A stretch of DNA of 1,745 nt from Naegleria gruberi (taxonomy: Eukaryota). Under the pieces are notes generated by a model, which was not told the DNA's origin, did not search any database, and worked only from the letters and a program-made list of their open reading frames with translations. This document shows, in pieces, positions 1 through 1,745 of this stretch. The position numbers were made by a program, and so were the translations under genes. The stretch lies in assembly GCA_000004985.1 (NCBI GenBank), contig GG739333.1; one strand, given 5' to 3'. How positions within the stretch are numbered: the stretch's first letter is position 1; the number at the start of each line of letters is the position of its first letter.

Positions 1-2
1 AC

Positions 3-266
3 TCCATCTGCACAAGGTAGAACAAAAGATTCACCCTTCCAGAAACCTTTCTTGTTATCTGCATAACAAGTACATTGTTCAAGCTCATTACAATAACCAT
101 TTCCACTACAAGTAGTTGAGGCATTACATTTAACCAAACTATTACACATAGCTCCTAAATAAGGAGAAACACATGCTGAACAATCTGCACCAGTCCAATA
201 ACCTTTGCCAGCTATGTTATCACAGACACAAATATTCAAATCTGTACATTGACCATGTCCAGAACA
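3..266 (-). other. Divergent cysteine-rich modules on the C-terminal side of the regular array: 8-Cys EGF-like units resembling laminin-type EGF
   Basis: Translation (minus, 266 down to 3): CSGHGQCTDLNICVCDNIAGKGYWTGADCSACVSPYLGAMCNSLVKCNASTTCSGNGYCNELEQCTCYADNKKGFWKGESFVLPCADG. The unit is 156 bp rather than 117. The 'C-x-C-x6-G-Y-W-x-G-x-x-C-x-x-C' pattern, with an extra C-x-x-C after the G..G..C, is the laminin-EGF hallmark rather than the tenascin one. The 117-bp periodicity is lost here. Confidence 0.55.
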
Positions 267-1745
267 AACAGATGAAGCATTGGAAGAAATGCCACCACAA
301 GTGAATTGAGCACAATGACTTCCGTAATATCCAGATTGACAAGAACAATGATCGAAAAAATCACATCTACCTTTTCCAGAACAAGCTGATGCATTTGTTG
401 AGACAATTCCAAAACAATTAAACTGGCTACAATCATATCCATTATATCCAGCTGAACAGGAGCAATTATTTGGGGAGATGCAACCACCATGTCCATAACA
501 TGCTGACGCATTTGTTGAGGCAGTTCCATAACAATCAAATTGACTACAATCATTCCCGTAGTATCCATCTAAACAGGAGCAATTATTTGGTGAGATGCAA
601 CCACCATGTCCATAACATGCTGAACCACTTGTTGAGGCAGTTCCATAACAATCAAATTGACTACAATCATTTCCGTAGTATCCATCTAAACAAGAACAAT
701 TATTTGGTGAGATGCAACCACCATGTCCAGAACATGCTGATGCATTTGTGGAGGCAGTTTCGTAACAATCAAATTCACTACAATCATTTCCATAATATCC
801 AGCTAAGCATGAACAGTTATTTGGTGAGACACAACGACCATAACTAGAACAAACTGAACCACTTGTTGAGGCAGCTCCAAAACAATCAAACTCAGCACAG
901 TCATTTCCGTAATGTTCGTTAGAGCATGAGCAATTATTTGGTGAGATGCAATCACCATGTCCAAAACAAACTGAACCACTTGTTGAGGCAGTTCCAAAAC
1001 AATCAAACTCAGCACATTCATTTCCATAGTATCCAGAGGTGCATGAACAATTATTTGGTGCAATACAATAGCCATTTCCAGAGCAAACTGATGAATTACT
1101 TGGTGAAATATCAAAACATTGGAAAGAACTGCAATCTGATCCACTATATCCAGCTAAGCATGAGCAGTTATTTGGTGAGAGACAGGTACCGTGTCCAGAA
1201 CATACTGAACCATTTGTTGAGGCAATTCCATAACAATCAAATTGACTACAATCATTACCATAGTGTTCATTAGAGCATGAGCAATTATTTGGTGAGATAC
1301 ATCTTCCTTGACCAGAGCAAACTGATGAAGAAGTAAATAATGTACCAAAACATTCGTATTCACTACAATTACTACCATAGTATCCATAGGTGCATGAACA
1401 ATTATTTGGAGCAATGCAATTACCATTTCCAGAGCAAACTGATGAATTACTTGGTGAAATATCAAAACATTGGAAAGAACTGCAATCTGATCCACTATAT
1501 CCAGCTAAGCATGAGCAGTTATTTGGTAAGAGACAGGTACCGTGTCCAGAACATACTGAACCATTTGTTGAGGCAATTCCAAAACAATCAAATTGACTAC
1601 AATCATTACCATAGTGTTCATTAGAGCATGAGCAATTATTTGGTGAGATACATCTTCCTTGACCAGAGCAAACTGATGAAGAAGTAAATAATGTACCAAA
1701 ACATTCGTATTCACTGCAATCATTTCCATAATATCCATCTAAACA
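3..1745 (-). CDS. Internal fragment (5' and 3' ends both outside the window) of a large secreted or surface protein made of tandem tenascin-type EGF-like repeats (581 codons, no stop)
   Basis: Seen in sequence: manual translation of the reverse complement with codons on plus triplets starting at positions divisible by 3 gives an uninterrupted frame across the window; no in-frame plus 'tta', 'cta' or 'tca'. Example stretch (minus, from ~734 down): CSGHGGCISPNNCSCLDGYYGNDCSQFDCYGTASTSGSACYGHGGCISPNNCSCLDGYYGNDCSQFDCYGTASTNASACYGHGGC... The 6-Cys spacing C-x5-C-x5-C-x-C-x8-C-x4-C with 'CxCxxG[YF]xGxDC' is the tenascin/EGF_2 signature. Cys codons are held in every unit while several third positions differ (e.g. 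573-581 'acaggagca' vs 690-698 'acaagaaca', both encoding C-S-C), which points to purifying selection on the protein. Confidence 0.85.
267..1670 (-). repeat. Tandem array of 117-bp (39-codon) coding repeats, 12 complete regular units, each one EGF-like module plus linker
   Basis: The first Cys codon of each 'CSGxGxC' sits at plus 1668-1670, 1551-1553, 1434-1436, 1317-1319, 1200-1202, 1083-1085, 966-968, 849-851, 732-734, 615-617, 498-500, 381-383 and 264-266, exactly 117 bp apart. Adjacent units 480-596 and 597-713 differ at about 7 of 117 nt (~94% identity). A partial unit occupies 1671..1745 at the window edge. Confidence 0.9.
1083..1433 (-). repeat. Higher-order 351-bp (3 x 117) repeat, copy 1
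   Basis: Encodes three unit types in order: 'CSGQGRCISPNNCSCSNEHYGNDCSQFDCYGIASTNGSV', 'CSGHGTCLSPNNCSCLAGYSGSDCSSFQCFDISPSNSSV' and 'CSGNGYCIAPNNCSCTSGYYGNECAEFDC...'. Nearly identical to 1434..1745. The 351-bp spacing also shows in the ORF track: minus out-of-frame ORFs 803..1144, 1154..1495 and 1505..1738 have stops 351 bp apart. Confidence 0.85.
1434..1745 (-). repeat. Higher-order 351-bp repeat, copy 2 (cut by the window edge)
   Basis: Aligns base-for-base with 1083..1394 apart from a few substitutions (e.g. 1179 'gagagac' vs 1527 'aagagac'; 1230 'ccataacaatc' vs 1581 'ccaaaacaatc'). The two copies diverge in the last ~35 bp (1365-1394 vs 1716-1745). There copy 2 resembles the 'CLDGYYGNDC' unit type seen at 663-692. 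Confidence 0.85.

What the first reader, a model, noticed from the sequence alone, without database searches (positions are those of the whole stretch)
1083..1745. ~99% identical 351-bp higher-order repeat with mosaic ends, suggesting recent unequal exchange or gene conversion
Single 117-bp units are 85-95% identical to their neighbours. The 3-unit block 1083-1433 is repeated at 1434-1745 with only 2-3 substitutions over ~280 bp. The two copies then diverge abruptly in the last ~35 bp, where copy 2 switches to a sequence type found at 663-692. Such a sharp switch marks a recombination breakpoint among repeats, which implies concerted evolution and probable copy-number variation. Short-read assemblies of this locus are therefore prone to collapse or expansion errors.
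Basis: seen in the sequence. Interest (0 to 1): 0.55.

Follow-up and report, generated by a model that had tools for sequence, protein, structure and literature searches.

The report
Recently duplicated EGF-domain triplet in amoeba gene
The repeat is the coding sequence, read on the opposite strand, for a string of EGF-like protein domains from a Naegleria-like amoeba, in which a three-domain block was recently copied or homogenised; this is an ordinary way for such proteins to evolve.

Summary
The core observation holds. Window 1072-1364 and 1423-1715 are 293 bp with 2 mismatches at a 351-bp offset. Copy 2 then diverges in its last 30 bp (10/30 mismatches). That end is 27/30 identical to 663-692, and equally to 780-809. 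One claim is wrong: adjacent 117-bp units in 1083-1745 are 62-70% identical, not 85-95%.

The minus strand is one open frame across all 1745 bases (581 codons, no stop). Each 117-bp unit encodes a 39-residue, six-cysteine EGF-like domain (Pfam EGF_2 E=2e-63; AlphaFold pLDDT 93.8). The 351-bp repeat is a three-domain block, A-B-C, present three times.

The closest proteins are Heterolobosean. The best is a Naegleria gruberi predicted protein that shares a 62-residue stretch at 61/62 identity. Diverged units give Ka/Ks of about 0.3, whereas the near-identical tract has Ks = 0. The identity therefore reflects recent common ancestry: intragenic gene conversion or unequal crossing-over.

The window ends inside the array, and the mosaic end sits in its last 30 bases. 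An assembly artefact cannot be excluded.

This is a new member of a known kind and of low interest.

The parts
1..1745 (-). Partial open reading frame of 581 codons, open at both ends. It encodes a cysteine-rich extracellular-type protein segment and is read from 1745 down to 1.
   Evidence: The minus strand frame has 0 stops, whereas the other five frames have 9-73 stops. Pfam EGF_2 gives E=2e-63 with 14 matched stretches, and EGF_TEN gives E=6.5e-46.
342..1745 (-). Twelve tandem 117-bp units, each encoding a 39-residue six-cysteine EGF-like module. In coding order they are A1, B1, C1, A2, B2, C2, A3, B3, C3, D1, D2, E.
   Evidence: Tandem Repeats Finder period 117. Unit table and identity matrix. 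Differences among units by codon position are 542/588/968.
1395..1745 (-). Three-domain block copy 1 (A1-B1-C1), the copy nearest the N-terminal side. The window ends here, so what precedes it is unknown.
1044..1394 (-). Three-domain block copy 2 (A2-B2-C2).
   Evidence: Unit identities to copy 1 are A 91%, B 98%, C 97%.
693..1043 (-). Three-domain block copy 3 (A3-B3-C3), an older copy.
   Evidence: 72/80/71% unit identity to copy 2. Ks 0.76, Ka 0.23.
1423..1715 (-). Near-identical tract, first member (in block copy 1).
   Evidence: 293 bp with 2 mismatches against 1072-1364. Exact runs are 133, 53 and 105 bp.
1072..1364 (-). Near-identical tract, second member (in block copy 2). The two differences, at 1177 and 1231, are both nonsynonymous (S/L and Y/F).
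1716..1745 (-). Mosaic end, encoding CLDGYYGNDC. This is the D/C3-type start of a unit rather than the A-type start (CTYGYYGSNC) found at 1365-1394.
   Evidence: 10/30 mismatches to 1365-1394. 27/30 identity to 663-692 and to 780-809. The A2 start is closest to the A3 start at 25/30.
459..692 (-). Two adjacent single units (D1, D2) that are 96% identical. This is a second recent duplication or conversion, at the one-unit period.
   Evidence: Ks 0.135, Ka 0.022.
1..341 (-). Tail on the C-terminal side of the array. It holds one diverged EGF-like unit (F, 225-341) followed by a different cysteine-rich module.
   Evidence: Pfam EGF_2 E=1.4e-06 and EGF_Teneurin 24.6 bits. The last 87 residues (window 1-261) are 36% identical to N. 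gruberi P0024 residues 362-447 (87 aligned positions, ungapped-statistics run), where the same arrangement follows an EGF array.

Best explanation
The window is part of a single-exon protein-coding gene on the minus strand. It comes from a heterolobosean amoeba, either Naegleria gruberi or a close relative.

The gene encodes the extracellular stalk of a surface or secreted protein built from tandem 39-residue EGF-like domains. The array has a three-domain periodicity (A-B-C, 351 bp).

The two block copies nearest the N-terminal side share a 293-bp tract that is 99.3% identical. The cause is a recent recombination event inside the gene. The simplest event is a non-allelic gene-conversion tract of about 300 bp between block copies that had already diverged. 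The alternative is an unequal crossing-over that duplicated one 351-bp period, followed by a small second exchange at the unit start.

Shown: the open frame, the EGF identity and fold, the amoebal affinity, the tract and its abrupt ends, Ks = 0 inside the tract against Ks of about 0.8 outside it, and purifying selection on the domains.

Inferred: the recombination mechanism, the extracellular role (from the architecture of relatives), and the assumption that the assembled order is the true genomic order.
For: - Open frame: 581 codons without a stop on the minus strand only.
- Domain identity: Pfam EGF_2 at 210.9 bits against a cut-off of 22.1, with 14 stretches.
- Conserved residues: six cysteines per domain invariant, except one (fifth cysteine of the third domain) conserved in at least 90% of the 43 aligned three-domain segments.
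- Fold: the AlphaFold2 model of one three-domain block has mean pLDDT 93.8. Its best PDB fold matches are tandem EGF modules of integrin beta, Jagged/Delta-like and WIF-1. WIF-1 and fibrillin-1 also match by sequence.
- Relatives: Naegleria gruberi, N. lovaniensis, N. fowleri, Acrasis kona and Willaertia magna. N. gruberi XP_002670926.1 is 78% identical over 156 residues, with 61/62 identity over units C3-D1.
- Architecture of relatives: full-length sequences show a signal-peptide-like N-terminal hydrophobic segment, an EGF array and a C-terminal hydrophobic segment, some with kinase or NHL domains.
- Tract geometry and statistics.
- Selection: Ka/Ks is 0.16-0.36 for most diverged unit pairs, with pooled pS 0.50 and pN 0.21. 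Inside the tract there are 0 synonymous differences in 62 synonymous sites.
- Family pattern: near-identical internal multi-EGF repeats occur in several relatives (P0066, P0026, P0002, P0021), so this mode of evolution is typical of the family.
- Literature: duplication of several domains at a time within one exon is a documented pattern (PMC1553488).
Against: - No reads and no second assembly of this locus could be obtained. The tandem order and the mosaic end therefore rest on one assembled sequence, which stops inside the array.
- No ortholog was found for the C-terminal 152 residues. The gene's full architecture and its source species are therefore inferred, not shown.
- The data cannot separate conversion from unequal crossing-over.
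- The two differences inside the tract are both nonsynonymous, but two events are too few to interpret.
Confidence: 0.8

Rival explanations
1. Assembly artefact. The genome has fewer copies of the three-domain block, or a different order. The second near-identical copy or the last 30 bases were produced by the assembler, either by traversing a repeat loop twice or by joining reads from different units or alleles at a contig end.
For: - The frame is open at both ends and the array runs to base 1745, so the sequence stops inside the repeat.
- The 'switch' occupies exactly the terminal 30 bases.
- Exact repeats of 133, 105 and 53 bp are long enough to confuse short-read assemblers.
- The two differences between copies could be allelic variants.
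Against: - The terminal 30 bases are not a copy of any other place in the window; the best match has 3 mismatches.
- They keep the reading frame and encode a normal unit start, CLDGYYGNDC, identical in protein to D1 and D2.
- The junction C1-A2 differs from C2-A3, so both junctions must exist in the reads.
- Mosaic arrangements of the same unit types appear independently in an N. gruberi protein model.
- Near-identical multi-EGF repeats appear in several relatives from other assemblies.
Confidence: 0.12
2. Non-coding satellite or minisatellite DNA with a higher-order repeat. This is the reader's implicit view: the open frame is incidental and the array evolves by concerted evolution without any protein function.
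For: - Regular 117/351-bp periodicity.
- No identical protein is on record.
Against: - 581 codons are open in one frame only.
- The EGF_2 match is very strong and the fold prediction is confident.
- There is an excess of third-position differences and Ka/Ks of about 0.3.
- The frame stays open through the non-repetitive tail 1-341, which matches a module found after EGF arrays in N. gruberi P0024.
Confidence: 0.03
3. The near-identity is maintained by selection on the protein sequence, or on codon usage, rather than by recent recombination.
For: Some short motifs, such as the PNNCSC core CCAAATAATTGCTCATGC, are conserved across ten units even at synonymous sites.
Against: - Selection on the protein does not preserve synonymous sites. 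The tract has 0 of about 62 synonymous sites changed, whereas the same positions in block copy 3 have Ks of about 0.76-0.83.
- Variable loop regions such as GTLFTSSSV are also identical between the two copies at the DNA level.
- The tract has sharp edges.
Confidence: 0.05

Closest known systems
Tandem EGF-like domain arrays of heterolobosean surface proteins (Naegleria gruberi, N. fowleri, N. lovaniensis, Acrasis kona 'tenascin'/'EGF-like domain-containing' predicted proteins; Pfam EGF_2 / EGF_TEN / EGF_Teneurin)
   Same: - The same unit of about 39 residues and six cysteines. Lag 39 is the commonest internal period among the 120 relatives.
- The same Pfam families.
- 33-49% identity to most of the best-scoring relatives (as low as 27% further down the list) and 78% to XP_002670926.1.
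- Several relatives also contain near-identical multi-domain internal repeats.
   Different: - No listed protein matches the window along its length.
- The C-terminal 152 residues found no homolog in the word-indexed search.
- The window has the most nearly identical internal repeat of the set, 97-98% over 107 residues at lag 117.
Expansion of protein domain repeats by duplication of several domains at a time (Bjorklund, Ekman and Elofsson 2006, PMC1553488), e.g. the seven-domain nebulin super-repeat
   Same: A block of several domains, here three, is the unit of duplication inside a repeat region that lies within one exon.
   Different: That survey, mostly of animal proteomes, found that EGF domains mostly resemble their immediate neighbour and expand one domain at a time. 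It linked this to introns at domain borders. Here an intron-free EGF array shows a three-domain period.
Higher-order repeats of satellite DNA (e.g. primate alpha satellite) and concerted evolution by unequal crossing-over or gene conversion (my own knowledge, not tested here)
   Same: Monomers are about 62-70% identical to their neighbours, whereas multimers are about 99% identical. Conversion-like tracts have sharp edges.
   Different: This array is protein-coding and under purifying selection. It has only three block copies in view and is not known to be centromeric or non-coding.
Intragenic tandem repeats in cell-surface genes that vary in copy number by recombination (yeast FLO/ALS adhesins, mucins; my own knowledge)
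   Same: An in-frame repeat inside a probable surface protein, with near-identical copies that are substrates for recombination.
   Different: - Copy-number variation was not observed here.
- The repeat units are folded, disulfide-bonded domains, not low-complexity Ser/Thr-rich segments.

Membership tests
EGF-like domain (Pfam EGF_2, PF07974; clan EGF) | Sequence match above the curated Pfam gathering score | tested here: met
   The whole window protein scores 210.9 bits against a cut-off of 22.1, with 14 stretches. One three-domain block scores 71.9 bits with 3 stretches.
EGF-like domain (Pfam EGF_2, PF07974; clan EGF) | Six conserved cysteines per domain of about 30-40 residues, with C-x-C and G-x-x-C spacing near the end | tested here: met
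   Every unit A1-E has cysteines at unit positions 1, 10, 15, 26, 32 and 38. In the alignment of 43 segments, 17 of the 18 cysteine columns are invariant and one (C106) is conserved in at least 90% of rows.
EGF-like domain (Pfam EGF_2, PF07974; clan EGF) | EGF fold: small two-stranded beta-sheets, with modules arranged in tandem | tested here: met
   The AlphaFold2 model has pLDDT 93.8 and paired short strands in each module. Foldseek matches to integrin beta I-EGF, Jagged-1/2, DLL1/4 and WIF-1 EGF modules have probabilities of 0.96-1.00 among the best 14 (E at or below 0.001). Disulfide connectivity was not inspected.
Calcium-binding EGF (cbEGF) | N-terminal D/N-x-D/N-E/Q-C calcium-binding consensus; Pfam EGF_CA match | tested here: not met
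   No EGF_CA family appears among the Pfam matches at E up to 1. The segments between domains read S-E-Y-E-C or S-Q-F-D-C.
Teneurin / tenascin proteins (animal) | EGF array combined with the family's other domains (teneurin: intracellular domain, YD shell, Tox-GHH; tenascin: FN3 repeats and fibrinogen globe) | tested here: not met
   Only the EGF-type models match. The window holds nothing but EGF-like modules, and the relatives are heterolobosean proteins with other partners such as NHL, kinase and RCC1 domains. The resemblance is at domain level only.
Higher-order tandem repeat produced by recent duplication or conversion | Multimer-to-multimer identity far above monomer-to-monomer identity | tested here: met
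   Identities at a three-unit offset are 91/98/97%, against 62-70% for adjacent units.
Higher-order tandem repeat produced by recent duplication or conversion | Identity not explained by selection (synonymous sites also identical) and bounded by abrupt edges | tested here: met
   Ks = 0 in the tract against 0.76-0.83 for older block copies. The permutation test gave 0 of 200,000.
Higher-order tandem repeat produced by recent duplication or conversion | Arrangement verified in the genome (reads or independent assembly); copy number varies between individuals | not testable with these tools
   No reads were available. No identical gene or contig is on record. One distant metagenome locus was the only hit.
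Naegleria (Heterolobosea) origin | Closest homologs, and near-identical segments, in Naegleria genomes | tested here: inconclusive
   The best named hits are N. gruberi, Acrasis and Willaertia. There is a 61/62 residue identity to N. gruberi XP_002670926.1. No full-length match exists, however, and no DNA comparison was possible.

The most novel reading that the evidence does not exclude
The array could belong to a fast-diversifying Naegleria surface receptor or adhesin. Under this reading, segmental gene conversion among EGF cassettes, within the gene and with paralogous arrays such as the one in XP_002670926.1, continually reshuffles loop sequences and generates variants. That would make it a cassette-exchange diversity system in a free-living amoeba.

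Three hints point this way: both differences inside the young tract are nonsynonymous, unit starts are swapped between unit types, and the same unit types occur in a different order in another N. gruberi protein.
Probability: 0.1. Interest if true: 0.5.

Novelty: new member of a known kind. Interest (0 to 1): 0.15.

Why it matters
It matters little beyond annotation. The window should be annotated as a partial, intron-free gene for an EGF-repeat protein. Its repeat is a textbook case of multi-domain duplication or conversion inside a coding array.

Two practical points follow:
- The locus is unresolved at its 1745 end, and the true number of EGF domains is unknown. Gene models here are likely to be truncated or chimeric. 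The odd N. gruberi model XP_002670926.1 may be an example.
- An intron-free EGF array that expands in three-domain steps departs slightly from the one-domain, intron-linked expansion reported for animal EGF repeats (PMC1553488).

Tried and rejected
- Look-up of the window protein and of P0012 in the gene-position index found nothing on record, so no flanking DNA or second assembly was obtained.
- The metagenome scan with the protein found one distant locus (L001, 39% identity), which is of no use for testing the unit order.
- The viral-contig scan found no relative. blastn against phage records found no match. A viral origin is not supported.
- A homology search with the C-terminal 152 residues alone found no hit, so no ortholog and no full-length architecture were obtained.
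- A plus-strand gene was rejected. All three plus frames have 11-57 stops under the standard code. The frame with only one stop under the ciliate code is the low-complexity antisense of the Cys/Asn/Gly-rich frame.
- The ciliate genetic code is not needed, because the minus frame has no TAA or TAG.
- Calcium-binding EGF and membership of animal teneurin or tenascin were rejected.
- A literature search for Naegleria EGF-like proteins found nothing that describes this family.

Full report
**1. The observation**

Tandem Repeats Finder reports one array under two periods. Period 117 covers 375-1737 (11.6 copies, 74% matches). Period 351 covers 430-1738 (3.7 copies, 83% matches).

Direct comparison of 1083-1394 with 1434-1745 gives 12 mismatches in 312 positions. 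Two are in the first 282 (1177 G/A, 1231 T/A). Ten are in the last 30, that is 1365-1394 against 1716-1745.

Scanning the 351-bp offset further left shows that the near-identical tract really starts at 1072. So 1072-1364 equals 1423-1715, 293 bp with 2 mismatches. The tract is flanked by 4 mismatches in 28 bp on one side and 10 in 30 bp on the other. When the 16 mismatches of the period were placed at random 200,000 times, none gave a stretch this long with 2 or fewer mismatches.

The last 30 bases match 663-692 at 27/30. They match 780-809 equally well.

Adjacent units in 1044-1745 are 62-70% identical. Only the units at 459-809 reach 88-96%.

**2. What it is**

The minus strand, read from base 1745 to base 1, is open for all 581 codons. 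The other five frames carry 9 to 73 stops.

The translation is a string of 39-residue units, each with six cysteines at fixed positions. Several results identify these units as EGF-like domains:
- Pfam matches EGF_2 at 210.9 bits (cut-off 22.1) in 14 stretches. The teneurin-type EGF models also match.
- An alignment of one three-domain block with 42 homologous segments keeps every cysteine; one of the 18 cysteine columns is conserved in 90% or more of rows rather than all.
- The AlphaFold2 model from that alignment has mean pLDDT 93.8.
- Its closest solved folds are tandem EGF modules of integrin beta subunits, Jagged/Delta-like ligands and WIF-1.
- WIF-1 and fibrillin-1 are also the only PDB matches by sequence.

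So 117 bp is one EGF-like domain, and the 351-bp 'higher-order repeat' is a three-domain block, A-B-C. The block is present three times:
- copy 1: 1745-1395
- copy 2: 1394-1044
- copy 3: 1043-693

After copy 3 come two nearly identical D units (692-459), two diverged units (458-225) and a different cysteine-rich tail (224-1).

**3. Whose gene**

The 120 best of 252 significant database matches (E at or below 0.001) are EGF-array proteins. The named ones are mostly from Heterolobosea: Naegleria gruberi, N. lovaniensis, N. fowleri, Acrasis kona and Willaertia magna.

The closest is N. gruberi XP_002670926.1 (NAEGRDRAFT_74071). It is 78% identical over 156 residues. It contains unit C3 exactly (39/39), the first 22 residues of D1 (21/22) and the last 20 residues of B2.

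No protein matches the window along its length, and the tail alone finds no homolog by word search. A local comparison shows that the last 87 residues (window 1-261) resemble the module that follows the EGF array in N. gruberi P0024, at 36% identity.

No copy of the locus could be retrieved from the gene index, metagenome contigs, viral contigs or phage records.

G+C is 37.5%.

The source is therefore most likely N. gruberi or a close relative. The gene is either unannotated or sits on an unplaced piece of an assembly. This is an inference.

Full-length relatives have an N-terminal signal-like segment, an EGF array and a C-terminal hydrophobic segment, sometimes with NHL or kinase domains. The window most likely encodes part of the extracellular stalk of a surface protein. 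This too is an inference.

**4. How the near-identity arose**

Diverged units are under purifying selection:
- Differences among units fall 542/588/968 on codon positions 1/2/3.
- Ka/Ks is about 0.16-0.36 for most pairs.
- Pooled pS is 0.50 against pN 0.21.

Block copies 2 and 3 differ with Ks 0.76. Inside the 293-bp tract, none of about 62 synonymous sites differs. Even the variable loop codons are identical. Selection on the protein cannot explain this. The tract is young.

The tract is shorter than one period. Its flanks are about as diverged as older block copies. One gene-conversion tract of about 300 bp between already diverged copies is therefore the simplest account. An unequal crossing-over that duplicated one period, followed by a second small exchange at the unit start, is also possible. 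The data do not separate the two.

The start of unit A1 (1745-1716, CLDGYYGNDC) is of the type that begins units C3, D1 and D2. The starts of A2 and A3 resemble each other at 25/30. The end is therefore a real mosaic in the sequence as given.

Two further signs of exchange appear in the window. D1 and D2 are 96% identical at the one-unit period. An 18-base core is shared by ten units with at most two mismatches.

**5. Is it unusual?**

A self-comparison of the 120 relatives shows a period of about 39 residues in most of them. Near-identical internal repeats (93% or more over 60 residues) occur in several: P0066, P0026 and P0002 at multi-domain offsets, and P0021 at the single-domain offset. 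N. gruberi P0008 has a 117-residue period at 73%. The window is the most extreme case in this set but not different in kind.

Expansion of domain repeats by several domains at a time is well described (PMC1553488). That paper found EGF arrays, mostly animal ones, to expand one domain at a time, and it linked this to introns at domain borders. An intron-free array with a three-domain step is a mild departure that fits the authors' own suggestion about repeats within one exon.

**6. Caveat**

The frame is open at both ends, and the array runs to the last base of the window. The mosaic segment is the terminal 30 bases. Exact repeats of 133, 105 and 53 bp can mislead assemblers.

Against an artefact:
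- The terminal segment is in frame.
- It encodes a normal unit start.
- It is not a copy of any other place in the window.

Without reads, I put an assembly artefact at about 0.12.

**7. Verdict**

The core observation is real. The interpretation as recent exchange among repeats is reasonable, but it misses the main point: this is the coding sequence of tandem EGF-like domains. It is a new member of a known kind and of low general interest.

Noticed in passing
P0012 (N. gruberi XP_002670926.1 / NAEGRDRAFT_74071), residues 58-213: This gene model places about four EGF units between a 57-residue N-terminus and a methyltransferase-like C-terminal part (Pfam PF01170/PF08241). It looks like a chimeric or mis-spliced model. 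Its EGF units are a different mosaic of the window's unit types: the end of B2, the whole of C3 and the start of D1.
   Followed up: partly
window 459-692 (minus strand): Two adjacent single units (D1, D2) differ at only 5 of 117 bases. This is a second recent duplication or conversion, at the one-unit period, separate from the 351-bp event.
   Followed up: partly
window 456-1643 (minus strand), ten sites: The 18-base core CCAAATAATTGCTCATGC, encoding P-N-N-C-S-C, recurs in ten units with at most two mismatches, synonymous positions included. This reflects either strong codon preference or repeated short homogenisation. It could also serve as microhomology for misaligned pairing.
   Followed up: no
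window 1-261 (minus strand): The array ends in a different cysteine-rich module containing C-x-x-C. It is 36% identical to the segment that follows the EGF array in N. gruberi P0024 (residues 362-447 over 87 aligned positions; 362-438 in the 77-position composition-adjusted alignment). A word-indexed search with the last 152 residues found no homolog.
   Followed up: partly
window 1177 and 1231: The only two differences inside the 293-bp near-identical tract are both nonsynonymous (Ser/Leu and Tyr/Phe). Two events are too few for a test.
   Followed up: partly
window 1-1745, plus strand frame 2: Under the ciliate code this antisense frame has only one stop. This is a by-product of the skewed composition of the Cys/Asn/Gly-rich sense frame and is not evidence of a second gene.
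   Followed up: yes
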